DNA of 64,000 bases, taken from Dehalococcoidia bacterium. Its GTDB lineage: Bacteria > Chloroflexota > Dehalococcoidia > Lucifugimonadales > Australimonadaceae. The translations under genes were made by a program, and so were the position numbers. The DNA is taken from positions 17,455-81,454 of the forward strand of contig DAOUJK010000041.1 of NCBI GenBank assembly GCA_034422795.1, in the 5' to 3' direction. The notes beneath the pieces are model-generated. The model worked only from the letters and a program-made list of their open reading frames with translations, ran no database searches and was not told the DNA's origin. This document shows, one piece after another, positions 8,537 through 43,055 of the stretch; within the stretch, counting starts at the first letter, position 1; each line of letters starts with the position of its first letter.

Positions 8537-8626
8537 GGAGGGATGGCAGAGTGGACGATTGCGGCGGTCTTGAAAACCGCTGTGCCGGCGACGGTACCGT
8601 GGGTTCGAATCCCACTCCCTCCGCCA
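8537..8626 (+). tRNA. tRNA-Ser (anticodon UGA), CCA encoded
   Basis: Acceptor GGAGGGA/TCCCTCC, anticodon stem GCGGT/ACCGC with loop CTTGAAA, long variable arm, T-loop GGTTCGAATCC. Confidence 0.9.
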
Positions 8627-16900: not shown

Positions 16901-17113
16901 CTACAGGGTTGGCTTGCTCTTGAACGCCTGACGGAAGGCCCTCTTGAACCGTGGACTGACCTTCTCCATCGTACGACCGAGGGATTCCTCCACTTCTCGG
17001 TGGATCTCCTCTCGTTGCTTCTTGGAGATTCGCGGAGGGGTAAGGTCAGGGTAGACGTCCTTCCGGCCCGCGTCAGCGTCCCTTGGTTGGGCTAGTGGAG
17101 TTGTTCGTGCCAT
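16901..17113 (-). CDS. Hypothetical small basic protein (70 aa), downstream of the island gene
   Basis: ORF on the same strand, 16 nt after the 17130 stop if started at the ATG at 17113. Lys/Arg/Glu-rich. Weak RBS. Confidence 0.3.
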   Translation of the reverse strand: MARTTPLAQPRDADAGRKDVYPDLTPPRISKKQREEIHREVEESLGRTMEKVSPRFKRAFRQAFKSKPTL

Positions 17114-17129
17114 TATGTCCGTACTGTCC

Positions 17130-18431
17130 CTATTGGCCTGTTTCAAACTGTTCCTTGCGCTTGACCCATTGGAAACCACCGCCCTTCGTTATAACGGCTA
17201 CATCTGTTGGCCCTCCAACAGATTCTTCCTCACGTGTCACTCGCCGTCTGAGAGAAGTGAGGCTCACCAGAGTCTCTGCCATCTCAGCGAGCCGTTCCCT
17301 AGGAAGATATTCTACCATGCTCATGATATCATCGTACAGTCTGTTCTTCCGTCTGTCTGTAAAGTCATCCACAACAGAATTTACAATAACCGAATGTTGA
17401 GCGAAGAGACCTTCCTGTAATGTGGCAAGGTTTGCCTGTTGATTTGAAACGCGTAGACCTTCAATGACAAGGCCGAGATACTTATCTAACGTCACACTGA
17501 GTAGCTCTTCGAAATAGGTATCGAATTCTGGATGTGTTCCCCAGAGAAACTGGTCAATCGTGTCTGTTTGTGCGAAGGGAAGTATTTGAACACGGGATTC
17601 ATAGGAGAGAGATTCTTTCCGGATTACCCTGTATATCAGCACACCTTGTACCAGCCCTTTGCATTGTAATTCAATTAGGCTAGGGAATATCTCATCTTGG
17701 CCGAATCCTGCGATGACTATGCCTGATCCGAAAGCATCCTCGTAAGCAATATCGTCGTGGAACCCACACACCGCTCTGATTGCGATAGAGTTCAAGCGAC
17801 GGACGAGGGTGGGAGTCAATCTTCTCTCGAACACTTCCTTACGAGCCAGACTCAGTTCTGCTCGAAGAGAACGACGCATCCTTTCTTCGAAGCCGACTGG
17901 TGCGTCCGAATGAATTCTCATCGATTTCGATTCGTCGTAGTACTCTGCAATAACTACACCGGTTACTCGTGCTAGGGTTTCTTCTTGGAACTGTGAGAAA
18001 CTCTTCCTACGTGCTTCTGCAGAATTTTTCCTGATTTCTTCTTGGAATCGGGCTTGAATTGTAGATTCTATGTCATTGAATAATTCATAGATCATAGACT
18101 CTAAGTCATGTTTCTCATGCTTTGAACTCACATATCGAGCGATATCTTCACGCAAGAACCTGCAGAAATCATCCGCGTATTCGGCGACGCTCCCGAAGTG
18201 ACTGTCCTTCGCTGACCTGCCATATTCCTTGATGATGGTCTCCCACGGAATATCGATGAAGGCAGCATCTCCGTAGGTCATGACACCGACCGGAGCACCA
18301 TCCGCCAACTGTAACAGTTTGTCATCTGACGTGAATATCTTGGAGGAACCATCAGCGTAGGTCAGGGTAGTAGCACTGTCTGCGGCTAGAGCGACCGCTT
18401 CGAGGTTCATGATGGCCACTTCTGCAGTCAT
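17130..18431 (-). CDS. Proteasome-beta/HslV-like N-terminal-nucleophile (Thr) hydrolase homologue with two large insertions (433 aa)
   Basis: M-TAEVAIMNLEAVALAADS...SSKIFT...GIVIAGFGQDEIFPSLIELQ...SVGGPTDVAVITKGGGF mirrors proteasome-beta motifs (Thr1, Asp17, Lys~33, C-terminal GGxxDVAVIT). Low-GC codon usage. Confidence 0.6.
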   Translation of the reverse strand: MTAEVAIMNLEAVALAADSATTLTYADGSSKIFTSDDKLLQLADGAPVGVMTYGDAAFIDIPWETIIKEYGRSAKDSHFGSVAEYADDFCRFLREDIARYVSSKHEKHDLESMIYELFNDIESTIQARFQEEIRKNSAEARRKSFSQFQEETLARVTGVVIAEYYDESKSMRIHSDAPVGFEERMRRSLRAELSLARKEVFERRLTPTLVRRLNSIAIRAVCGFHDDIAYEDAFGSGIVIAGFGQDEIFPSLIELQCKGLVQGVLIYRVIRKESLSYESRVQILPFAQTDTIDQFLWGTHPEFDTYFEELLSVTLDKYLGLVIEGLRVSNQQANLATLQEGLFAQHSVIVNSVVDDFTDRRKNRLYDDIMSMVEYLPRERLAEMAETLVSLTSLRRRVTREEESVGGPTDVAVITKGGGFQWVKRKEQFETGQ

Positions 18432-18517
18432 ACTTGCAAAACCCCATACATGCGCAAAGGCAAACTGTGTGAGGTGAGTCTGCCCTTCCTTGTGTGTTAG
18501 CCCCTGCTCCCCGCGCT

Positions 18518-25265: not shown

Positions 25266-25519
25266 GGCTTGGCGTGACACGCGCCCCTTCCGCAGTCGCC
25301 CCACGACCGCGTACGCTGGTCGGTGGCGGCAACCCGACGGACCAACGGAGGACCGGCTGAGGGGCTCAAAAAGGCTCGGAAAGGCTCACGAAACAGGGGA
25401 TTTGAACCTTTTTGAGCCTCGCCAGGGGCTCGTTAAGGGCACAAACGCCAGAGGTAAATGAGCCGAAATGAGCCTGCCGTTACGAGTAAATCACGAAGAA
25501 CTTCCTGCCCCGCCGGGCC

Positions 25520-26824: not shown

Positions 26825-26901
26825 GGGCGGTTAGCTCAGTTGGTTAGAGCGCTTGCTTCACACGCAAGAGGTCACAGGTTCAAGTCCTGTATCGCCCACC
26901 A
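26825..26901 (+). tRNA. tRNA-Val (anticodon CAC), CCA encoded
   Basis: Acceptor GGGCGGT/ATCGCCC, D arm GCTCAGTTGGTTAGAGC, anticodon loop TTCACAC, T-loop GGTTCAAGTCC. Confidence 0.9.
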
Positions 26902-26933
26902 CTCCGTGGGGGCCACCACTGTGTGAGGGGCGT

Positions 26934-27019
26934 GCCGAGGTGGCGGAACGGCAGACGCGCTGTGTTCAGGGCGCAGTGTCCTTACGGGCGTGCGAGTTCA
27001 AATCTCGCCCTCGGCACCA
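26934..27019 (+). tRNA. tRNA-Leu (anticodon CAG), CCA encoded
   Basis: Acceptor GCCGAGG/CCTCGGC, anticodon stem CTGTG/CGCAG with loop TTCAGGG, long variable arm, T-loop GAGTTCAAATCTC. Confidence 0.9.
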
Positions 27020-27068
27020 ACTGAAAAGATGACGTCTCCGGTCCCGCAACCGGCGGCAACTTGAGAGT

Positions 27069-27146
27069 GCGCTAGTAGCTCAGTCAGGATAGAGCGCATC
27101 CCTGCGGAGGATGAGGCCGTGGGTTCGAGTCCCGCCTAGCGCGCCA
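27069..27146 (+). tRNA. tRNA-Arg (anticodon GCG), CCA encoded
   Basis: Acceptor GCGCTAG/CTAGCGC, anticodon stem CATCC/GGATG with loop CTGCGGA, T-loop GGTTCGAGTCC. Confidence 0.85.
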
Positions 27147-36486: not shown

Positions 36487-37470
36487 ATGGCCACACTCGT
36501 AGGAACGTTCTTCCACTCCCACGGGGGCACGACGTCGCTCCCGCCCGAGCTATGGGTCGAGCGGCGCGCCGCCCGACCCATCCGTGACGATGTTCCGGTC
36601 GAGACGCTGGAGCAGAACGTTGCCAAGGCCAACCGCACGCACAAGGGCTTCCGCGTTCTGCGCGAGCGCATCGCCGAACTCAGCCCCGACGTGCTCGTCA
36701 TCTTCAGCGACGACCAGCTGGAGTGCTTCGACTTCAATAACTACCCTGCGTTCGCGGTCTACGTCGGCGACAGCTACGCGAAGTCGCCGCGCGAGCCGCG
36801 CACCCCGGAGATCGGACGCCACGCCGAGCCCGGCTACCGCTTCCCCGGCCACCCGGAGCTTGCGGTGCACCTGCTCTCCGGCGTCATGCAGCGCGGCTTC
36901 GACCCCGCCTTCTGCATGGACATGCCGAAGCCGGACCGCGGCCTCGCGGGCGGCGTCATCCGTTCCGTCGAGGAGCTGACCGACTTCTCCCTGCCATCCG
37001 TGCCCATCATGATGAACCTCTACTTCGCTCCGCAGGTGAGCGGCTTGCGCAGCTACCAGTTCGGCAAGGCCGTGCGCGAGGCGCTGGACGACGCGCCCGC
37101 CGACCTCCGCGTTGCCGTCGCGGCCTCGGGCGGACTCTGGCACACGCCGGGGATGCCGGGCGCGTGGCTGAACGAGGAGTTCGACCGCGCGATACTGGCC
37201 CGCCTTGAAGAGGGCGATGCCCGCGGCATGGCCGAGTACTTCGACGCCTACGTCATCCCGGAGGACGACACGAGCCAGGATGCCGCCTACCGGGGGCGCG
37301 TCAGCACCGGCATGCCGTCGCCGGGCGGCCCTGCGTTCGGCACGCGCGAGACTTGCGCGTGGATAGCGGCAGCCGCCGTCACCGAGGGCCGCCCCACCAC
37401 CATCGTCGACTACATCGAGGTCTACGCCTCCCCCGTCGGCAACGCCTTCGCCTACTGCGACGACGTGTGA
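36487..37470 (+). CDS. Class III extradiol dioxygenase, LigB family (paralogue 3)
   Basis: MATLVGTFFHSHGGTTSLPPELW...VAASGGLWHTPG. Ends ...VYASPVGNAFAYCDDV*. Confidence 0.8.
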   Translation: MATLVGTFFHSHGGTTSLPPELWVERRAARPIRDDVPVETLEQNVAKANRTHKGFRVLRERIAELSPDVLVIFSDDQLECFDFNNYPAFAVYVGDSYAKSPREPRTPEIGRHAEPGYRFPGHPELAVHLLSGVMQRGFDPAFCMDMPKPDRGLAGGVIRSVEELTDFSLPSVPIMMNLYFAPQVSGLRSYQFGKAVREALDDAPADLRVAVAASGGLWHTPGMPGAWLNEEFDRAILARLEEGDARGMAEYFDAYVIPEDDTSQDAAYRGRVSTGMPSPGGPAFGTRETCAWIAAAAVTEGRPTTIVDYIEVYASPVGNAFAYCDDV

Positions 37471-37592
37471 GAGGGGCGGGCTGATGCTGGAGTACAAGCG
37501 GGAGTTCCGTGCCTCGATCGATGCCTACTTGGACGGGTACACGGAGCTCGGCATCGAGCCGGTCGCGCCGACCGCAGCGCCCGTTGCGCCAT

Positions 37593-37662
37593 AGACATCG
37601 GCTGCATCCAGGTCCACGCCTCGCCCGTCAGCAACGTCTTCGCCTGCTGCGACGACGTGTGA
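37593..37662 (+). pseudogene. Detached copy 2 of the LigB-3 3' tail (fragment)
   Basis: Reads ..IDIGCIQVHASPVSNVFACCDDV* with its own TGA at 37660-37662. 5 mismatches over the last 51 nt versus 37420-37470. Confidence 0.75.
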
Positions 37663-38710
37663 GGGAGAGGTACTCGACAGTCGGTTAGTAAAGACCATAA
37701 AGTGTCACAGACGATTCTGATGCGACCAGGTACTGGAGGATACGTGAGTAGAACCTTCACGGTAACCGAGAAAGGAAACTTGGATAGGATTGCACTTATG
37801 CTGGCGACCCTGCGGGCGCTACATAGGCTCGGTGGCTCTGGTTCACTCCATGTAATCTACGAAACGGTACTCGTATTGGAAGAAGTACCACCCGAAGAGG
37901 CGTACATACTCGGTAGCAATGGCAAACTGAAGCTCAGATATGGATTAGATTGGTCTCGGACTATGTTGAAGCATGTGGGACTAGTGACAAACCCTAGGCA
38001 TGGTATCTGGGAGTTAACTTATGCAGGAAGAACCGAGTACACGTATGCAGACTTGAAGACAATATGGGAAATACATAAGAAAGGCGGCGATATATCCAAA
38101 GCGTACCCTCTTCAGAATGAAGAAGCGCCCTCAAATACCGCGCCAATAGCTGAGATAATCTTGGAAGAAGAAAATTCCACTGAACCGGAAGGACTGCTGA
38201 CGTCTATTCAAATGCAGGCGAAGATTGCTCAGATCGGTGCAACAATGCACTTTGACATCTGGGTGCCTCCTTCCGACAGAAGCCAAGTCAAAGGATATGT
38301 TGCGGTCGATTTGCACGGCAGGTTTGTCGAAGGAGAGTTGCCTCTCGGCTACAACAAAGAAACACTAAGCACCGTACGCCAGATTGATGTGCTCTGGCTT
38401 CAGGGTAACGCAATAGCAAGGGCATTTGAAATTGAGCATACTACTGCCGTCTACTCAGGCCTTCTACGCATGGCAGACCTGCTAGCGTTACAACCCAATA
38501 TCAATATCAAGTTACATATAGTTGCGCCAGATGAAAGGGAAAAGAAAGTGCTGTATGAAATCGGGCGCCCTGCTTTTTCTTCTTTGAACTTGCCTGCAAG
38601 TTGTTCATTTCTTTCTTACACTAAGATATGTGAATTTGCAGAACAATCCAATTTGGAATTTATGTCACATGCCGCTATCAGCAAATATGAAGTGAAGGCG
38701 AACGGCTGAT
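37663..38710 (+). mobile_element. Low-GC single-gene cassette (Mrr-like nuclease) between a LigB-tail copy and a Rieske-tail copy
   Basis: Hand-counted lines are about 48-50% GC versus about 70% in the flanks. Bounded exactly by the gene-tail fragments. No recombinase. Confidence 0.6.
37702..38709 (+). CDS. Mrr-like restriction protein: N-terminal Mrr_N winged helix plus C-terminal PD-(D/E)xK-like nuclease domain
   Basis: LRALHRLGGSGSLHVIYETV...RYGLDWSRTMLKHVGLVTNPRHGIWELTYAG resembles Mrr_N. The C-terminus has D-VLW..AFEIEHTT. Start uncertain (GTG 37702 or ATG 37720). Confidence 0.6.
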   Translation: MSQTILMRPGTGGYVSRTFTVTEKGNLDRIALMLATLRALHRLGGSGSLHVIYETVLVLEEVPPEEAYILGSNGKLKLRYGLDWSRTMLKHVGLVTNPRHGIWELTYAGRTEYTYADLKTIWEIHKKGGDISKAYPLQNEEAPSNTAPIAEIILEEENSTEPEGLLTSIQMQAKIAQIGATMHFDIWVPPSDRSQVKGYVAVDLHGRFVEGELPLGYNKETLSTVRQIDVLWLQGNAIARAFEIEHTTAVYSGLLRMADLLALQPNINIKLHIVAPDEREKKVLYEIGRPAFSSLNLPASCSFLSYTKICEFAEQSNLEFMSHAAISKYEVKANG

Positions 38711-38793
38711 CCCCTCTACTCCGGGAACACCGCCACGCTCTCGTCGCTCTTGGGCTGTAGCGCTGGTGGCCGTGGTAGATCATCCGCGTCTGG
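38709..38793 (-). pseudogene. Detached diverged copy of the Rieske-3 3' tail (fragment)
   Basis: Aligns to 40376-40463 at about 85% identity with a 1-nt deletion. Reads ..QTRMIYHGHQRYSPRA/DESVAVFPE* with TAG (CTA at 38716-38718). Confidence 0.75.
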
Positions 38794-38843
38794 TCTACGC
38801 CTCGCCGGTCGGCAATGCCTTCGCCTGCTGCGACGACGCGTGA
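38793..38843 (+). pseudogene. Detached copy 3 of the LigB-3 3' tail (fragment), fused directly to the Rieske-tail fragment
   Basis: GTCTACGCCTCGCCGGTCGGCAATGCCTTCGCCTGCTGCGACGACGCGTGA encodes VYASPVGNAFACCDDA*. 5/51 mismatches to 37420-37470. Confidence 0.75.
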
Positions 38844-38865
38844 GGGATAGGTTATACTCCGTTCG

Positions 38866-40371
38866 ATGCAGTCCCACTCCGGTCTTTTCTCGTCCCTCGC
38901 GTTGCTGCTGGCCGCTGTAGCTGCCTGCACGTCGTCGACACCAACGCCTGTCCCGACTGCAACACCGGCTCCAACGCCGACGCTGGCGCCCACGCCAACC
39001 GCCCTCATCCTGATGCCTGCACCGACCGCCGCGCCTGCTCCCACTCCAACCCCGATGCTGATCGTGGCGCCCACTCTCGTTCCAGCGCCTACCGCTGCGC
39101 CGGTAGAGCTATCGGCGGCGGACGCCGAAGCGCTGCTCCATGAGAACGCAGCCAGGGTGCGTGACGAGTTCATCCGCAACGCGGAGAACTGCCGCTTCAC
39201 CTACTCGTATGCCGGGCTGTCAGCAGTTCGTGAAGGCCGGGAAGGCTGGGAAGTAGAGAGGCATATGACTTTGCGGGATGGGCGGACGGTATCCTCAGGC
39301 AGCTCTACCAGCAGTAGCCACGGAGGCGTCGACGCTGCCCGGATACCGGAATACGGTCCTGATAATGACTACGACCCGGTTGAATGGTTCGGCGCGGAAT
39401 ACCAGAGTCTTGTTGACGGTGCCGATCGCGGGACCTATGCGGGCCGCTCAACCTACTTCGGGCAACCGGCCCTGCGTTATGAGACGCGTGTTGAACGTGA
39501 AGACGCGGATATGCCTGCATCGGCTCTCATCGTTACCGACCACCTGGTAGAGAACCCCTATGTCTTCATAGAGAACGAATACAGTGCCAACGCAGACGGG
39601 ACCCGGCAACTGGAGCGGCAGTTCATGCGGTATCGGTTCGAGCTGACACACTGCACTGCCGGTGGGGGGTACGATGCCGCCGCCGTTGCGGTGTGGAGAG
39701 CACTTGCAGAGAAGGCAGCAGACGTCTACACGTCGATACGCGATGGCCTCCTCGAAGGTTGTGAGATGACGTTCAGGGAGGATCACTACATGTGGTTGGA
39801 TTTCCGAGGGGACCCATTACCGGGTGGTTCTCTCGAAACGGAGGTACGTTACGTCATCGCTCGCAATGACGGAGGCTCCTGGCAGGTCACCCCGCAAGGG
39901 GTGGCTCGACAGGGAGAGCGTATCGTGGGCAGAACGACGCCTGAGGGGATATGGATGGTGCTGGACCCCTGGACTGGCGAATGGACAGAGCAACCTCCTG
40001 TCACTGAAGCCTATGAAGACCCCTTCGAGTTTCTCTCGGAGCACATCGCGGGCCTCGGTTATGCCAGGTTCGTAGACGAGGAAGGCCTCCCCCTGTCCAC
40101 TGATGACGGTCAACACTACCACTACCCCTACGCAGGTAAGACAGAGGTCGATGGGCGTCCGGCCGTACGGTATGAGAAGGTATCAACGGACAGCTATGCC
40201 ATAGATCCGGAAGATGGTCTCCGGCTATACGTTGAAGCGCATGAGTTCCTGGAAGACAACCCATTGCTGTTCCGCCGGAGCGACTATCTCCTGCTTCCCG
40301 ACGGCGAGATTCAGCCTTACGCGGAGAGCAGGGTCGAGGAGTTGGGACTGCAGGACTGCCCCGGCGCCTAG
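38866..40371 (+). CDS. Lipoprotein with a long Pro/Thr/Ala linker; otherwise hypothetical (501 aa)
   Basis: Lipobox AVAAC. A ~60-aa PT-rich low-complexity linker. Intermediate GC. Its TAG shares the CTAG tetranucleotide with the convergent Rieske stop. Confidence 0.65.
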   Translation: MQSHSGLFSSLALLLAAVAACTSSTPTPVPTATPAPTPTLAPTPTALILMPAPTAAPAPTPTPMLIVAPTLVPAPTAAPVELSAADAEALLHENAARVRDEFIRNAENCRFTYSYAGLSAVREGREGWEVERHMTLRDGRTVSSGSSTSSSHGGVDAARIPEYGPDNDYDPVEWFGAEYQSLVDGADRGTYAGRSTYFGQPALRYETRVEREDADMPASALIVTDHLVENPYVFIENEYSANADGTRQLERQFMRYRFELTHCTAGGGYDAAAVAVWRALAEKAADVYTSIRDGLLEGCEMTFREDHYMWLDFRGDPLPGGSLETEVRYVIARNDGGSWQVTPQGVARQGERIVGRTTPEGIWMVLDPWTGEWTEQPPVTEAYEDPFEFLSEHIAGLGYARFVDEEGLPLSTDDGQHYHYPYAGKTEVDGRPAVRYEKVSTDSYAIDPEDGLRLYVEAHEFLEDNPLLFRRSDYLLLPDGEIQPYAESRVEELGLQDCPGA

Positions 40372-41636
40372 CCAGGCATCCCGCCCTGCTCCGGGAACAT
40401 CGCCACGATCTCGTCGATGGCGGGGTTGTAGCGCTGGTGCCCGTAGTAGATCATCCGCGCCTGGTTGCGGTCCGGCGTGTAGTACACCTTCTCCTGGGTC
40501 ATCTCGATGCACTGGTTCGTCGCGGGGTCGCGGAACACGTTCATCGGGTCGCCCCCGTCCGCGACCGTCGCCATCGCCTCGTTCAGCATCCGGCGCAGCA
40601 TGATGACGCCCGTGTCGGACTCGCCGAGCTTCTCGCGCGTCCGGTCGGCGATGGGCGTCTGTGTCACCCACGCCATGAAGTCCTGCACCAGCGGCAGCTC
40701 CACGTTCAGCTCCCCGTTCGCGTCGTACAGCGGGATCTCGTAGTACGGCACCCGCTCCTGCGGCGGCACCTCCACCTCCGGCGGGAACTGGTAGCGCGTG
40801 TACACGACGTGCAGCGTGTTCTCGTCGTCGACGGGCACGCGGATCTGGAACTCCGTGCTCGTCGTGCCCGTGGTGGAGCGGAGGATGTTGGGGAACACCC
40901 ACGGGTGGCCGATCCTCCAGATGTCGTCCTCCTCGGAGCTCCCCTCGACGATGCGCTTTTTGAAGACGCCGTTGGCGAACTGCTGGAAGCCGATGCGCTG
41001 GTGGGGGCGCATCATCGCCTTGCGCCACGGCGGCACCTTCTCGCCCGTCTTCTGCGCGAGGTACCAGCCGTAGACGCCGTGCAGCCACTCCGCGTGGACG
41101 GGGTCGGCTGAGTTCTCCTGGCACTGGAGCCAGTTGCAGGGGAGCATCGTGAAGCCGATGTCGCGCCACGCGTGGTCGGTCACGAACAGGTCCCAGCGCG
41201 GGACGAGCGGCGCCGGCAGTGGCCCCATGTAGGCGAACAGCAGTCCGCCGAGCTCCTCGACCGGGTACGCCGTGACGCGCACCTTCTCCTTGAATCGCCC
41301 GTCCGGGTGGACCGTCTCTTCGAACGGCTGCTCGATGCACTGGCCGGTCTCGTCCATCATCCACCCGTGGTACATGCAGCGCAGCCCGTGCTCCTCGGGG
41401 ATGCCATACGACAGGTCGACGCGCCGGTGCGGGCAGAAGCGGTCGACCAGCCCCAGCGTCCCTGACTTGTCCTTGTAGAGGACGAGGTCCTCGCCCAACA
41501 GTCGGACGGCCTTCGTGGGACGCTCGTCCATCTCCGCGGCTGCCGCGATGGGGTGCCAGTAGCGGCGCATGAGTTCGCCCATCGGCGTCCCGGCGCCGAC
41601 CTGCGTGAGCCGTTCGTTCTCCTGCTGCGTGAGCAT
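40368..41636 (-). CDS. Rieske [2Fe-2S] ring-hydroxylating oxygenase alpha subunit (paralogue 3)
   Basis: CPHRRVDLSYGIPEEHGLRCMYHGW Rieske motif. GGAGGGAGGGAG RBS before the ATG at 41636. N-terminus nearly identical to paralogue 1. Confidence 0.85.
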   Translation of the reverse strand: MLTQQENERLTQVGAGTPMGELMRRYWHPIAAAAEMDERPTKAVRLLGEDLVLYKDKSGTLGLVDRFCPHRRVDLSYGIPEEHGLRCMYHGWMMDETGQCIEQPFEETVHPDGRFKEKVRVTAYPVEELGGLLFAYMGPLPAPLVPRWDLFVTDHAWRDIGFTMLPCNWLQCQENSADPVHAEWLHGVYGWYLAQKTGEKVPPWRKAMMRPHQRIGFQQFANGVFKKRIVEGSSEEDDIWRIGHPWVFPNILRSTTGTTSTEFQIRVPVDDENTLHVVYTRYQFPPEVEVPPQERVPYYEIPLYDANGELNVELPLVQDFMAWVTQTPIADRTREKLGESDTGVIMLRRMLNEAMATVADGGDPMNVFRDPATNQCIEMTQEKVYYTPDRNQARMIYYGHQRYNPAIDEIVAMFPEQGGMPG

Positions 41637-42034
41637 CCTGCTCCCTCCCTCCGTACGGACCGCTACCGCTGCGCGGGATTGTAGCGCACGCACTGCTGCC
41701 TGGCGCCCTCTCCTGGGGGAGAGGAACGCGCTTTAGCGTGCGGTGAGGGCCCTTGGGGCGGTGCGCGGGGGGCTGTCATGCTGAGCGAAGTCGAAGCATC
41801 TCTCGGGCAGGCTTGGCTCCCTCTCCTGAGGGAGAGGGCTGGGGTGAGGGCCCTGGAGGTGGACGAGGTGGTGCTCGGTGTGGGGGCTGTGACATCCGCC
41901 CCTTTCGCGGCCACCCCCGCATCACCTACGCTGGATGCATGACCGTCTTGTCGGCAGCACCCATAGACTGCGTCTATAGCTCGACCCTCAGCTATAGACC
42001 AGAGCTATGGCTCCGTAGCGGAACTTTGTTTCGA

Positions 42035-42184
42035 TGGCCCCCTTGCCCCCTTAATCGCGCGAAGCAGGCCGTGGCCTTGGAAACGCCTCATATTAAGGGG
42101 GCCATGTGGCCGGATTGGACATGCGGTTTACTCGTAATTTCGGATTAAGGGGGCCACGATTCCCGTGGGGTTGGCCACCTTAAT
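42035..42184 (+). repeat. Iteron-bearing ~150-nt intergenic module, locus 1 (13-mer ATTAAGGGGGCCA)
   Basis: 18-mer GAAGCAGGCCGTGGCCTT at 42061. 13-mers at 42092 and 42144, inverted at 42172. Doubled inverted copy at 42035-42055. Confidence 0.7.
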
Positions 42185-42212
42185 CGTGAGGTTGCTCAGT
42201 GGGCGCCTGGCA

Positions 42213-42293
42213 GGGAGTGCAGAGGGCAGAGCTCTCTGCCGGGGGTGTGGGGGTGTCCCCCACAGCGTATCGGGTGGGTGGGTGGGAAGAACA
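42213..42293 (+). repeat. Family-A intergenic element, copy 3
   Basis: GCAGAGGGCAGAGCTCTCTGC hairpin, GTGGGGGTGTCCCCCAC hairpin, then GGGTGGGTGGGTGGG. Lies 64 nt upstream of the next start codon. Confidence 0.7.
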
Positions 42294-42356
42294 ACACCCG
42301 CCGAGCGCGCAGCGGACGTATAATGCGCCCCAACAAGGGGTGTAAGGAGGCAGGCG

Positions 42357-43055
42357 ATGGCAACCTACGGTTTCGAGGACCACTGCTGGCAGGACGTGGT
42401 GAGCGCGGAAGACATCGAGCTCTACAAGCACTACCAGCGGGAACTGTTCGTCGGACGGCGTCCGGCGATACTGGCGATCGACCTCTACAACTCGGCGTAC
42501 CAGGGCGGCCCCCGCCCGGTGCACGAGGTGGCGAAGGAGTTCCCGAGCGCGTGTGGCGAGTACGCGTGGAACGCCATCGAGCCGACGAAGCAGCTCTTCG
42601 CTATGGCGCGCGCCCGCGGGTTCCCGGTCGTCTACACGACGGGCGAGGACCGGCCTGAGGCCCGCCCCAACCGTCTGCGCTCGACGAACCGCCGCCGGGC
42701 GAACCAGGGCGAGAACCCGTTCGGCATCTACGAGGCGTTCGCGCCTGAGCCGGAGGACCTCATCATCTACAAGCAGCGCGCGAGCGGCTTCTATGGGACG
42801 CCGCTGGTGGCGCAGCTCGTGCAGATGGGCGTCGACACGGTGCTGGTCTGCGGCGAGAGCACGAGCGGCTGCGTCCGGGCGTCCGTCGCTGACGCCTACT
42901 CCAACGGCTTCCACGTCGTCATCGCCGAGGAGTGTGTATACGACCGCGCCCTGCTGTCGCACAAGGTCAACCTGTTCGACATGCACCACAAGTACGCCGA
43001 CGTGATGCACCTGGACGAGCTCGCCGAGCACCTGGAGGCCTTCCCCGAGGCATAA
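42357..43055 (+). CDS. Isochorismatase-family cysteine hydrolase
   Basis: AILAIDLYN..., ...DTVLVCGESTSGCVRASVADAYSNGFHVVIAEECV is the catalytic Cys motif. AAGGAGG RBS. Confidence 0.85.
   Translation: MATYGFEDHCWQDVVSAEDIELYKHYQRELFVGRRPAILAIDLYNSAYQGGPRPVHEVAKEFPSACGEYAWNAIEPTKQLFAMARARGFPVVYTTGEDRPEARPNRLRSTNRRRANQGENPFGIYEAFAPEPEDLIIYKQRASGFYGTPLVAQLVQMGVDTVLVCGESTSGCVRASVADAYSNGFHVVIAEECVYDRALLSHKVNLFDMHHKYADVMHLDELAEHLEAFPEA

What the first reader, a model, noticed from the sequence alone, without database searches (positions are those of the whole stretch)
42035..42184. Conserved ~150-nt intergenic module whose iteron core is switched in every copy between two loci (second locus 62693-62843)
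Both loci share an identical 18-mer, GAAGCAGGCCGTGGCCTT (42061-42078 and 62719-62736). It contains the palindrome AGGCC-GT-GGCCT.

Both loci also share the same layout around it:
- a doubled inverted repeat upstream (TGGCCCCCTTGCCCCCTTAAT versus TGGCAATCTTGCGTCCTTAA)
- 13 nt after the 18-mer, a 13-mer ATTAAGnnnnCCA
- about 40 nt later, the same 13-mer again
- a 14-15-nt spacer, then the inverted copy of the 13-mer

The 4-nt core is GGGG in all copies at locus 1 (42092, 42144, inverted 42172). It is AGTG in all copies at locus 2 (62750, 62804, extra AGAGTGCCA at 62763, inverted 62831).

Concerted replacement of a recognition core on a fixed scaffold is the behaviour of iterons, arm sites or transposon subterminal repeats co-evolving with a cognate DNA-binding protein. 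It could also reflect covariation in a hairpin RNA: the stem position G-C in locus 1 becomes T-A in locus 2. Neither locus overlaps a credible ORF.
Basis: seen in the sequence. Interest (0 to 1): 0.7.

Follow-up and report, generated by a model that had tools for sequence, protein, structure and literature searches.

The report
Iteron arrays tied to ATPase gene
The two look-alike 155-base modules are most likely arrays of short protein-binding repeats from an undescribed Chloroflexota family of one-gene cassettes, in which a RecA-like ATPase with a DNA-binding tail is followed by its own private repeat array; one copy here is complete and the other is a gene-less remnant.

Summary
Both loci carry the identical 18-mer and the same layout of five or six 9-13-nt units. 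The core is switched in most units, not all.

The module is the 3' part of a larger element:
- Locus 2 starts a few bases after the stop codon of a 561-aa RecA-like (AAA_25) ATPase. This protein has an N-terminal Cys/His-rich region (possible zinc site) and a C-terminal winged helix.
- Locus 1 is a gene-less derivative (41890-42186) that keeps the same promoter-like 5' part.

About 50 further copies were found, all in Dehalococcoidia, SAR202 or other Chloroflexota genomes. All 20 or so homologous ATPase genes examined are followed by the module.

Within a copy all units resemble each other, including direct repeats that could never base-pair. G.U and A.C mismatches are equally frequent, and the 18-mer is read in all three frames. 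This argues for double-stranded-DNA iterons rather than an RNA or a coding sequence.

The unit core tracks one residue of the recognition helix and a motif in the wing across about ten classes.

Best reading: a cognate ATPase/iteron (rep-ori-like) cassette with orphan arrays. Whether it replicates, regulates or moves is untested. It is a new variant of a known kind.

The parts
60936..60984 (+). Locus 2 element, 5' promoter-like part. It runs TGACATGCCCCCGTTGCGCAGACG, then 13 nt, then TACGAT (60973-60978), then 6 nt, then the ATG. It is read as a -35-like TTGCGC and a -10-like TACGAT for a leaderless mRNA.
   Evidence: Sequence. The same architecture stands upstream of every homologous gene examined and of the short copies. 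Promoter function is inferred; the generic sigma-70 scan was run only on 41600-42500 (locus 1), where it found no promoter-like site.
60985..62670 (+). Gene for a 561-aa RecA-like ATPase (Pfam AAA_25). It has an N-terminal region with invariant Cys/His (possible zinc site) and a C-terminal winged helix (residues about 476-550). It is the proposed cognate binder of the repeats. A REP-like repeat is inserted in frame at about 62230-62350.
   Evidence: Gene call. Pfam AAA_25 at 9e-13. AF2 model with a confident winged helix. Foldseek similarity to KaiC CI and to the winged-helix protein Pex. At least 120 homolog clusters, the few that carry a source name being labelled Chloroflexota 'AAA family ATPase'.
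62677..62845 (+). Locus 2 module (iteron array, core AGTGC). Its parts in order:
- AT-richer spacer GAACTTTTGAGAAC, 62677-62690
- inverted units TTGGCAATCTTG, 62692-62703, and CGTCCTTAAC, 62704-62713
- 18-mer, 62719-62736
- direct units ATTAAGAGTGCCA, 62750-62762, and AAGAGTGCCA, 62762-71
- CTCACTCTTGG, 62786-62796
- direct unit, 62804-62816
- inverted unit, 62831-62843
41890..41941 (+). Locus 1 element, 5' promoter-like part. It runs TGACATCCGCCCCTTTCGCGGCC, then a spacer, then TACGCT (41927-41932), then GGATGC, then ATG (41939-41941). It is homologous to the 5' part of the ATPase genes but more degenerate.
41961..42012 (+). Locus 1 middle part. It has four alternating arms, CCATAGAC / GTCTATAG / CTATAGAC / (G)CTATGG. 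Their sequence is conserved, not variable, among the 'type 1' short copies. Function unknown.
   Evidence: Inverted repeat I3; upstream sequence listing.
42020..42186 (+). Locus 1 module (iteron array, core GGGGC/GTGGC), an orphan with no ATPase gene. Its parts in order:
- spacer GGAACTTTGTTTCGA, 42020-42034
- inverted units TGGCCCCCTTG, 42035-42045, and CCCCCTTAATC, 42046-42056
- 18-mer, 42061-42078
- direct unit ATTAAGGGGGCCA, 42092-42104
- degenerate unit, about 42105-42113
- TTTACTCGTAA, 42127-42137
- direct unit, 42144-42156
- inverted unit, 42172-42184

Best explanation
The modules are arrays of double-stranded-DNA binding sites (iterons). The proposed binder is the C-terminal winged helix of a Chloroflexota-specific RecA-like (AAA_25) ATPase.

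The complete unit is a one-gene cassette with three parts:
- a promoter-like 5' part that would give a leaderless mRNA;
- the ATPase gene;
- directly after its stop codon, two inverted units, a conserved GGCC-NN-GGCC palindrome (the 18-mer), two direct units, a conserved TTTACTCGTAA motif, and a final direct and inverted pair.

Each paralogous ATPase has its own unit sequence, and about ten classes were seen. Window locus 2 (60936-62845) is such a complete cassette, of class AGTGC. Window locus 1 (41890-42186) is a gene-less derivative of class GGGGC/GTGGC. It would be served in trans by a paralog encoded elsewhere in the genome.

By analogy with the self-loading Rep helicases of SaPI-type satellites, the most likely activity is sequence-specific loading of the ATPase at its array, that is, a rep-ori-like module.

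Shown: the anatomy, the family, the concerted unit variation, the linkage to the gene, and the correlation between helix or wing class and unit core.
Inferred: that the winged helix binds the units.
Speculative: replication or loading activity, what binds the 18-mer, and how copies spread.
For: 1. Family. The 18-mer scan found about 50 copies with the same layout, all in Dehalococcoidia, SAR202 or other Chloroflexota MAGs and several per genome. The other hits (116 stretches returned in all) are unrelated chance matches.

2. All units are alike within a copy. Over 41 copies, the 5-nt cores of any two of the five scored units are 0.68-0.80 identical within a copy and 0.44-0.50 between copies (0 of 2000 permutations). 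This holds for direct-repeat pairs M1-M2, M2-H5 and M1-H5, which could never pair in a hairpin.

3. No single-strand signature. Mismatches in the inverted repeats are G.U 27, A.C 30 and other 40 (similar).

4. Non-coding. The 18-mer is read in all three frames, and stop positions of the leaderless ORFs are erratic.

5. Linkage. Every homologous ATPase gene examined has the module starting between 0 and about 50 nt after its stop, and the same 5' part. This covers W2, L009, L022, L026, L036, L042, L060, L061, L112, L119/L124, L120, L121 and L125-L133.

6. The protein's tail is a winged helix. The AF2 model has pLDDT 83-92 for residues 476-550, with three helices and a two-strand wing. It resembles Pex, a winged-helix DNA-binding protein by my recollection (PDB title: circadian clock protein Pex), with Foldseek probability 1.0 and rmsd 2.8-2.9.

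7. Specificity code. Residue X of the helix-3 motif T/A-L-X-R-A-R, together with the wing-strand motif, tracks the core:
- F with AGTGC (4 loci)
- A with GATGC (2)
- R plus KATRA with GGGGC (3)
- R plus ICTRV with GTGCT
- R plus ACTRA with GTGGC
- K with AGGCT
- V plus KAFRV with A/GATGT (4)
- H with ATTCC (4)
- I with GATGC/AATCT
.

8. The association crosses two clades of the ATPase body. L026 (V) is 86% identical to L009 (F). L042 (R) is 89% identical to L131 (A). L120 (R) is only 72% identical to L042 (R).

9. Orthologous locus. L131 has the same neighbours (SecA 85% and SulP 83% aa identity), but its ATPase is only 65% identical. Its recognition-helix residue is A instead of F, and all units are switched from AGTGC to GATGC.

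10. Orphans match a resident gene. The units of L116 equal the ATCAAGGTGGCC units of L133 in the same genome. The units of L018 equal those of L128. L096 shares the core ATTCC with L132.

11. Documented analogue. SaPI Rep helicases bind 5-6-nt iterons through a C-terminal winged helix. Six to twelve iterons lie immediately downstream of rep, with at least two on each side pointing in opposite directions (PMC9371898).
Against: - No binding, replication or transcription data exist for any member.
- The C-terminal coding region and the array are physically adjacent. Their co-segregation across ATPase-body clades could therefore reflect linkage rather than function.
- Helix class and unit core were paired in only about 20 loci.
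- The centre of the array is a GC-rich conserved palindrome (12 of 18 G+C), not the AT-rich melting region of SaPI or plasmid origins.
- The ATPase is RecA-like and shows only P-loop-level similarity to known helicases: RSF1010 RepA at E 0.93, DnaB-type models at E 0.02-0.08. Foldseek E-values are all above 0.01.
- There is no integrase, primase, packaging or other mobile-element gene next to any copy, so what would be replicated is unclear.
- Several orphan classes in a genome have no matching resident gene in the data held.
- Inverted-repeat complementarity is very high (92% of cells paired), so a structural role in single-stranded nucleic acid is not excluded.
Confidence: 0.55

Rival explanations
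1. The same protein-DNA pair acts in gene regulation, not replication. The ATPase-winged-helix paralogs would be transcription regulators or roadblocks. Each would have a private operator set, placed after its own gene and, as orphan promoter-plus-operator modules, in front of other genes.
For: - Each orphan carries the promoter-like 5' part.
- The nearest downstream gene is co-oriented in 32 of 49 copies.
- Many neighbours are catabolic paralogs: Amidohydro_2, amidase, luciferase-like monooxygenase, FAA hydrolase, Rieske, isochorismatase.
- No replicon or mobile-element genes accompany the cassette.
Against: - In 17 of 49 copies the downstream gene is convergent.
- Neighbours also include rplU, rpsT, secA, orn and an isocitrate/isopropylmalate dehydrogenase-family gene (Iso_dh).
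- The array lies 3' of the regulator's own gene, which is unusual for autoregulation.
- No sigma-70-type promoter passes the generic scan in the region scanned, 41600-42500 (locus 1).
- RecA-like ATPases fused to a winged helix are not a known regulator class (my knowledge).
Confidence: 0.2
2. The module is a structured RNA: a 3' UTR or 5' leader element, or a small RNA. The conserved 18-mer and ACUCGU motifs would be loops, and the variable units would be covarying stems.
For: - The pattern of conserved 'loops' and variable 'stems'.
- 92% of cells form standard pairs, and the covariation score is 0.378 against 0.144 in shuffles (0 of 500) for the two long helices.
- The element has a promoter-like start and would be transcribed with the ATPase mRNA.
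- Both strands fold with low energy.
Against: - Direct repeats that cannot pair co-vary as strongly as helix partners.
- G.U (27) is about equal to A.C (30) among mismatches, so neither strand is favoured.
- A subfamily (L048, L056, L071, L091) keeps 3 mismatches in 12 in the 3' hairpin while its units still resemble each other.
- The hairpin around ACTCGT is not consistently predicted and was not found by RNAalifold.
- The GGCC-NN-GGCC core leaves a 2-nt centre, which is poor as a hairpin.
- No Rfam match at the gathering threshold or at E up to 10, apart from noise.
Confidence: 0.12
3. The module is the terminal or recombination part of a mobile element. Candidates are MITE or IS ends, IS200/IS605-type hairpins, att or attC-like sites, or an invertible switch. 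The units would bind a transposase or recombinase, and the GGCC-NN-GGCC palindrome would be a 2-bp crossover core.
For: - Multi-copy dispersal in both orientations, with short derivatives that look like internal deletions of the gene-bearing form. Type-2 copies keep the first codons and the last codons...QQDETP, of the ATPase ORF.
- The same chromosomal slots hold cassettes of different class and orientation: upstream of secA and upstream of rplU.
- The centre of the palindrome varies GT/AC/AT, as a crossover dinucleotide could.
Against: - No transposase, integrase or recombinase gene lies in or near any copy.
- There are no terminal inverted repeats. All units sit at one end of the element, and the other end is the promoter-like part.
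- Unit sequences differ between copies in one genome, the opposite of transposase-recognised ends.
- The two window loci are separated by housekeeping genes.
- My search for target-site duplications was inconclusive.
Confidence: 0.08

Closest known systems
Rep-ori module of SaPI/PICI phage satellites (self-loading Rep helicases; PMC9371898)
   Same: - An NTPase with a C-terminal winged helix that recognises short (5-6 nt) iterons.
- The iteron array lies immediately downstream of the gene.
- At least two iterons on each side point in opposite directions.
- Iteron sequence and protein specificity differ between elements on a common scaffold.
   Different: - The ATPase here is RecA-like (Pfam AAA_25), not the superfamily 3 / AAA+ Rep.
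- The array centre is a conserved GC-rich palindrome instead of an AT-rich region.
- There is a third iteron pair plus a conserved TTTACTCGTAA motif.
- There is no island context: no int, pri, packaging or repressor genes.
- Gene-less orphan arrays are scattered in the chromosome.
- The hosts are Chloroflexota.
Phage P4 alpha protein with ori and crr (from my own knowledge, not checked here)
   Same: A multidomain initiator with a C-terminal DNA-binding domain. It recognises an octamer iteron present in direct and inverted orientation at two separate cis sites (ori and crr). This resembles one protein serving its own array and remote orphan arrays.
   Different: P4 alpha carries a primase and an SF3 helicase, belongs to a complete satellite phage genome, and has a single specificity.
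Iteron plasmids (Rep/iteron origins and incompatibility; review PMC4980987 listed, not read)
   Same: Repeated short sites bound by a cognate initiator. Private iteron sequences keep co-resident replicons from cross-reacting. Extra iteron arrays outside the origin act as control or titration loci (from my knowledge, for example P1 incA).
   Different: Plasmid Rep proteins are WH1-WH2 initiators without an ATPase. Their iterons are 17-22 bp and mostly direct, and a DUE and DnaA boxes accompany them. Here the elements are chromosomal and the protein is an ATPase.
RSF1010 RepA / DnaB-type RecA-fold hexameric helicases (the fold class behind Pfam AAA_25)
   Same: A RecA-like P-loop core. There are weak profile matches to RecA (2.6e-8), RepA (0.93) and DnaB models.
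   Different: Similarity is confined to the Walker A region. RepA has no winged helix or Cys/His-rich N-terminal region and no cognate iterons of its own.
Mosaic intergenic repeats (BIME/REP, BOX, Correia-type MITEs; from my knowledge)
   Same: Modular, multi-copy intergenic elements of a few hundred bases with internal inverted repeats. Some carry promoters.
   Different: In those families the repeats are the same in all copies of a genome and no linked gene defines them. Here the conserved parts are the spacers, and the repeats vary by copy in step with a linked gene.

Membership tests
SaPI/PICI-type Rep-ori module | Initiator NTPase carries a C-terminal winged-helix domain | tested here: met
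   AF2 model: residues 476-550 at pLDDT 83-92, three helices plus a two-strand wing. Foldseek match to the winged-helix protein Pex, probability 1.0.
SaPI/PICI-type Rep-ori module | Short iterons immediately 3' of the gene, at least 2 on each side in opposite orientation | tested here: met
   Two inverted plus two direct units flank the 18-mer, starting 0-50 nt after the stop codon in all the full-length loci examined, about 20.
SaPI/PICI-type Rep-ori module | AT-rich melting region at the centre of the array | tested here: not met
   The centre is the conserved GAAGCAGGCCGTGGCCTT, 12 of 18 G+C. The only AT-richer stretch, AACTTTTGAAA, lies outside the array on the 5' side.
SaPI/PICI-type Rep-ori module | Rep is a superfamily 3 / AAA+ helicase | tested here: not met
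   Pfam AAA_25 (RecA-like). Best structural and profile matches are KaiC CI, RecA and RepA.
SaPI/PICI-type Rep-ori module | Resides in an excisable island with integrase, primase and packaging genes | tested here: not met
   Neighbours are secA, SulP, rplU, SDR, SnoaL, Amidohydro_2 and the like. No integrase lies in the flanks held: within 10 kb in the window, within 0.6-1.5 kb at the eight loci fetched, and within a few kb at the other full-length loci.
SaPI/PICI-type Rep-ori module | Cognate-specific binding and origin activity | not testable with these tools
   Only a sequence correlation between helix or wing class and unit core is available.
Structured RNA family (Rfam) | Match to a curated covariance model | tested here: not met
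   At the gathering threshold only 4 tRNAs are found in the window. At E up to 10 on 41850-42260 there is only noise: mir-3102 at 2.5 and NiCo at 4.8.
Structured RNA (generic) | Covariation confined to pairing partners, with strand-specific G.U tolerance | tested here: not met
   Non-pairing direct repeats co-vary equally. G.U 27 against A.C 30. Pairing itself is high.
IS200/IS605, MITE or PATE ends | Terminal or subterminal repeats at both ends, the same in all copies of a genome, with a linked or resident transposase | tested here: not met
   All units are at the 3' end. The 5' end is the promoter-like part. Units differ between copies of one genome. No TnpA or TnpB-like ORF is in the flanks.
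Integron attC or phage att sites | Adjacent integrase; R''/L''-L'/R' core sites (attC) or arm sites around a shared core at island borders | tested here: not met
   No integrase. The two loci do not bound an island, since the genes between them are ValRS, CoaBC, SecA and similar. No GTTRRRY-type cores are visible in the sequence.
Iteron-plasmid origin (Rep_3 / WH1-WH2 initiators) | Initiator of the RepA/Rep_3 family next to 17-22-bp direct iterons, with DnaA boxes and a DUE | tested here: not met
   The protein is AAA_25 with no Rep_3 hit. Units are 9-13 nt in both orientations. The closest plasmid and phage proteins share only the P-loop region.

The most novel reading that the evidence does not exclude
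The cassette may be a new kind of selfish or domesticated chromosomal element. It consists of one gene (a RecA-like ATPase with a Cys/His-rich N-terminal region and a winged helix) and its private iteron array. It diversifies into mutually non-cross-reacting specificity classes while the ATPase body is homogenised between paralogs. It seeds gene-less promoter-plus-iteron modules across Dehalococcoidia and SAR202 genomes, without any integrase or transposase. These modules could act as local replication or unwinding sites or as switchable promoters next to catabolic and housekeeping genes.
Probability: 0.25. Interest if true: 0.8.

Novelty: new variant of a known kind. Interest (0 to 1): 0.6.

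Why it matters
- It gives a function-level lead for a large protein family annotated only as 'AAA family ATPase'. The family has at least 120 clusters at 90% identity, often with 2-3 paralogs sharing one long contig, in abundant marine and sponge-associated Chloroflexota.
- It offers a compact natural specificity code. One helix residue plus a wing motif maps to a 5-nt core in about ten classes, which can be tested directly by EMSA and residue swaps.
- If the cassette loads a helicase or initiates replication in the chromosome, it would be an unusual integrase-less rep-ori element. It could bear on how paralog-rich SAR202 and Dehalococcoidia genomes rearrange or amplify genes.
- If it regulates, it would be a new regulator class.
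- Practically, annotators should not call the spurious ORFs that run through these modules.

Tried and rejected
- Rfam at the gathering threshold on the whole window, and at E up to 10 on locus 1, found nothing relevant.
- My first neighbour-gene clustering suggested an amidohydrolase downstream of 37 of 52 copies. That cluster was inflated by spurious ORFs translated through the module itself. Redone with a GC3 filter, the neighbours are diverse.
- Reading the module as coding sequence was rejected. The leaderless ORF in locus 1 ends at 42148, the three frames are used interchangeably across copies, and ORF lengths are erratic.
- A sigma-54 reading of TGGCAC..TTGC was rejected because the spacing is 3 nt too short (sequence).
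- Attenuator or terminator: no U-tract follows the 3' hairpin.
- A hairpin with ACTCGT in its loop is not consistently predicted.
- Comparing minimum free energies to pick a strand gave mixed results.
- My boundary regex for the target-site-duplication search failed for most copies, so the search is inconclusive.
- The metagenome scan for the ATPase returned only 6 loci.
- Foldseek against the PDB gave only weak matches, all with E above 0.01.
- PADLOC, PHROGs and NCBIfam gave only P-loop-level hits. Plasmid and phage collections gave the same.
- The hit at 2471 is an unrelated hairpin.
Full report

Reading the window confirms the identical 18-mer GAAGCAGGCCGTGGCCTT at 42061-42078 and 62719-62736. 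Allowing up to 3 mismatches gives 3 hits against 0.12 expected. The third, at 2471, is an unrelated hairpin just after a stop codon.

The 13-mer ATTAAGNNNNCCA with up to 1 mismatch occurs 7 times, all inside the two loci, against 2.3 expected. The two loci align over about 155 nt with the same order of parts.

The 'switch in every copy' is overstated:
- The 3' inverted unit has core GGTG in both loci.
- One middle unit of locus 1 is degenerate.
- The upstream inverted unit of locus 2 reads ATTG.
- The specific compensatory change claimed for the 3' hairpin is therefore absent.

**2. Context in the window**

The window is part of a 187.6-kb metagenome scaffold, NGUY21-1 scaffold_230. The genes between the loci are housekeeping: ValRS, CoaBC, pantothenate kinase, SecA and others. 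The loci therefore do not bound an island.

Locus 1 lies between a divergent Rieske oxygenase gene and an isochorismatase gene. Locus 2 starts a few bases after the stop codon of a lone 561-aa gene with a Pfam AAA_25 domain, located between secA and a SulP transporter gene.

**3. The family**

About 50 of them share the whole layout. All come from Dehalococcoidia, SAR202 or other Chloroflexota MAGs, with several per genome. The rest are chance matches inside unrelated genes.

The consensus runs as follows:
- AACTTTTGAAA;
- two inverted units;
- ..CGG, the 18-mer, G.AAACACCCC;
- two direct units, then CCAGAT;
- YYYACTCGTRR;
- a direct unit followed by (AGAATTC);
- an inverted unit.

**4. The module is only part of a larger element**

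In most copies, including locus 1, a conserved part of about 190 nt precedes the module. It reads TGACAC.CGCCCCTT.CGCGGTCG, then 13 nt, then TACGCTGGTTGC, then ATGACC. It is followed by four alternating arms of the type CCATAGAC/GTCTATGG.

The same start stands in front of every ATPase gene: TGACAC..GCCCGTTGCGCGG, 13 nt, TAC(C/G)AT, 6 nt, ATGAC. I read it as a -35-like TTGCGC and a -10-like TACNAT driving a leaderless mRNA. This is an inference; the generic sigma-70 scan, run only on 41600-42500 around locus 1, found no promoter-like site there.

A second type of short copy keeps the first codons and the last codons (...QQDETP) of the ATPase ORF, so it looks like an internal deletion.

Thus locus 2 is a complete cassette (60936-62845) and locus 1 is a gene-less derivative (41890-42186). 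A third copy of the 5' part alone sits at 25275.

**5. RNA, coding sequence or DNA sites?**

The leaderless ORFs of the short copies end at erratic positions. They read the 18-mer in all three frames (EAGRGL, GSRPWP, KQAVAL), so the module is not coding.

The inverted units are highly complementary. Of all cells, 92% form standard pairs, and the covariation score is 0.378 against 0.144 in shuffles. Three results argue against an RNA or single-strand structure as the constraint:
- Over 41 copies, every pair of units is 0.68-0.80 identical within a copy and 0.44-0.50 between copies. This includes the direct repeats M1-M2, M2-H5 and M1-H5, which can never pair. The constraint is therefore 'all units alike'.
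- Mismatches are G.U 27, A.C 30 and other 40. This shows no strand-specific wobble tolerance (similar).
- No Rfam family matches, and the putative hairpin around ACTCGT is not consistently predicted.

This is the behaviour of iterons on double-stranded DNA.

**6. The candidate binding protein**

All homologous ATPase genes I could examine, about 20 loci, are followed by the module. In some the stop codon lies inside the first unit.

The family has at least 120 clusters at 90% identity. The few that carry a source name are labelled 'AAA family ATPase' from Chloroflexota. Contig-length coincidences suggest 2-3 paralogs per genome.

The protein has three parts:
- A conserved N-terminal region with invariant Cys and His residues. 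I read this as a possible zinc-binding site; that is an inference from the invariant residues, since no zinc-finger family or fold was matched.
- A RecA-like P-loop core: Pfam AAA_25, weak matches to RecA, RepA and DnaB, and a KaiC CI-like fold.
- A confidently modelled C-terminal winged helix: residues 476-550, helix 3 at 516-525, wing strands at 529-534 and 542-547. It resembles Pex, which I recall as a PadR-type winged-helix DNA-binding protein.

**7. Co-variation of protein and DNA**

Residue X in the helix-3 motif T/A-L-X-R-A-R, together with the wing-strand motif, sorts with the unit core:

| Helix residue X (wing motif) | Unit core | Loci |
|---|---|---|
| F | AGTGC | W2, L009, L036, L126 |
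| A | GATGC | L061, L131 |
| R (KATRA) | GGGGC | L042, L112, L120 |
| R (ICTRV) | GTGCT | L125 |
| R (ACTRA) | GTGGC | L133 |
| K | AGGCT | L128 |
| V (KAFRV) | A/GATGT | L026, L119/L124, L121 |
| H | ATTCC | L022, L060, L129, L132 |
| I | GATGC/AATCT | L127 |

The classes do not follow the tree of the ATPase body. L026 (V) is 86% identical to L009 (F). L042 (R) is 89% identical to L131 (A) and 85% to L119 and L121 (V). L120 (R) is only 72% identical to L042.

At the orthologous secA-SulP locus of a related MAG (L131), the neighbours are 83-85% identical but the ATPase only 65%. Its helix residue is A instead of F, and all units read GATGC instead of AGTGC.

Orphans can match a resident gene of the same genome. 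L116 matches L133, L018 matches L128, and L096 shares its core with L132.

One caveat applies. The C-terminal coding region and the array are adjacent, so linkage alone could keep them together.

**8. Mechanism and comparison**

The closest documented system is the Rep-ori module of SaPI satellites. There, a helicase with a C-terminal winged helix binds 5-6-nt iterons. These lie immediately downstream of rep, with at least two on each side in opposite directions, and each element has its own specificity (PMC9371898).

The present cassette shares that anatomy but fails several membership features:
- The ATPase is RecA-like, not superfamily 3.
- The array centre is a conserved GC-rich palindrome (GGCC-GT/AC/AT-GGCC), not an AT-rich region.
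- There is no island, integrase or primase context.
- Plasmid and phage collections hold no close homolog.

I therefore say it works like a rep-ori/iteron pair but is not a member of that family. Whether it loads a helicase, titrates the protein, regulates read-through into neighbours, or mediates rearrangements is open.

Copies lie next to diverse genes. Verified by Pfam here: Amidohydro_2, amidase, luciferase-like monooxygenase, FAA hydrolase, Iso_dh, Pyr_redox_2, RNase_T, L21 and S20. The nearest downstream gene is co-oriented in 32 of 49 copies.

The slots upstream of secA and upstream of rplU hold cassettes of different classes, and at secA in both orientations, in different genomes. This points to turnover or recombination at these sites.

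**9. Verdict**

- The iteron reading is supported, and a candidate partner protein is identified.
- The RNA and transposon-end readings are not supported.
- The thing is a new variant of a known kind (initiator plus private iterons) in an unusual, integrase-less, multi-paralog chromosomal form.

Confidence is about 0.55 that the units are cognate binding sites of the linked winged helix. It is lower, roughly a third, that the activity is replication-type loading.

Noticed in passing
window 25275-25500 (+): A third copy of the promoter-like 5' part (TGACACGCGCCCCTTCCGCAGTCG..TACGCTGG), with no ATG and no 18-mer. It is followed by a different repeat set: AAAGGCTCA three times direct, then TGAGCC units inverted. 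It ends with TTACGAGTAAA, the reverse complement of the module's TTTACTCGTAA motif. It may be a related module type or an inverted arrangement.
   Followed up: partly
window 41701-41862, 60738-60925, 62845-62900; also L018, L048, L119, L120, L127 and L132 flanks: A separate REP-like repeat (CCCTCTCC-N4-GGGAGAGGG ... GGGTGAGGG) sits immediately next to the element ends in the window and in several other genomes. It looks like an independent small repeat family that favours the same intergenic spots.
   Followed up: no
window about 62230-62350 (inside the ATPase gene): The ATPase ORF contains an in-frame stretch (..PPLSRGEVVAHNAAGEGRIPPLPGGEVAAPSAAGEG..). It is absent from most homologs and looks like translated REP-type repeats. 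It is modelled with very low confidence (pLDDT below 50 for residues 352-475). Other homologs carry a different repeat-like insert (..VIPAEAGIQ..) at the same place.
   Followed up: no
window 41961-42012: Four alternating arms, CCATAGAC / GTCTATAG / CTATAGAC / CTATGG, form one long composite palindrome. Unlike the iterons, their sequence is conserved across the 'type 1' short copies. The overlapping leaderless ORF (MTV..APID.VYSS..SYR..LW) is also conserved for about 28 codons. Neither a binding factor nor a peptide role was tested.
   Followed up: partly
secA-upstream and rplU-upstream regions: window 60703-62845, L042, L131, L132; L022, L125: The same chromosomal slots hold an ATPase/iteron cassette in different genomes, but of different specificity classes (F, A, R and H at secA; H and R-ICTRV at rplU). 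At secA it occurs in both orientations. ATPase bodies are more alike within a host clade than within a specificity class, which suggests gene conversion of the body with diversification of the tail.
   Followed up: partly
L011, L079, L087, L094, L117 (OZ242348.1, the SAR202 MAG MPMJ01, and others): A divergent subfamily keeps the 5' part, the 18-mer and ACTCGTAA. It has CACACACAC before the array and units such as GTCGATATAGAT and ATCAAGAACG. It is sometimes present as tandem copies 151 nt apart.
   Followed up: no
window 37000-39500 and 17000-18500: Two low-GC patches (0.49-0.51 against a background of about 0.67). The first contains an Mrr_N/NmeDI_C restriction-type gene and is probably horizontally acquired.
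   Followed up: no
window 26825-27143 and 8537-8623: A cluster of three tRNA genes and one separate tRNA. These are the only Rfam matches in the window.
   Followed up: no
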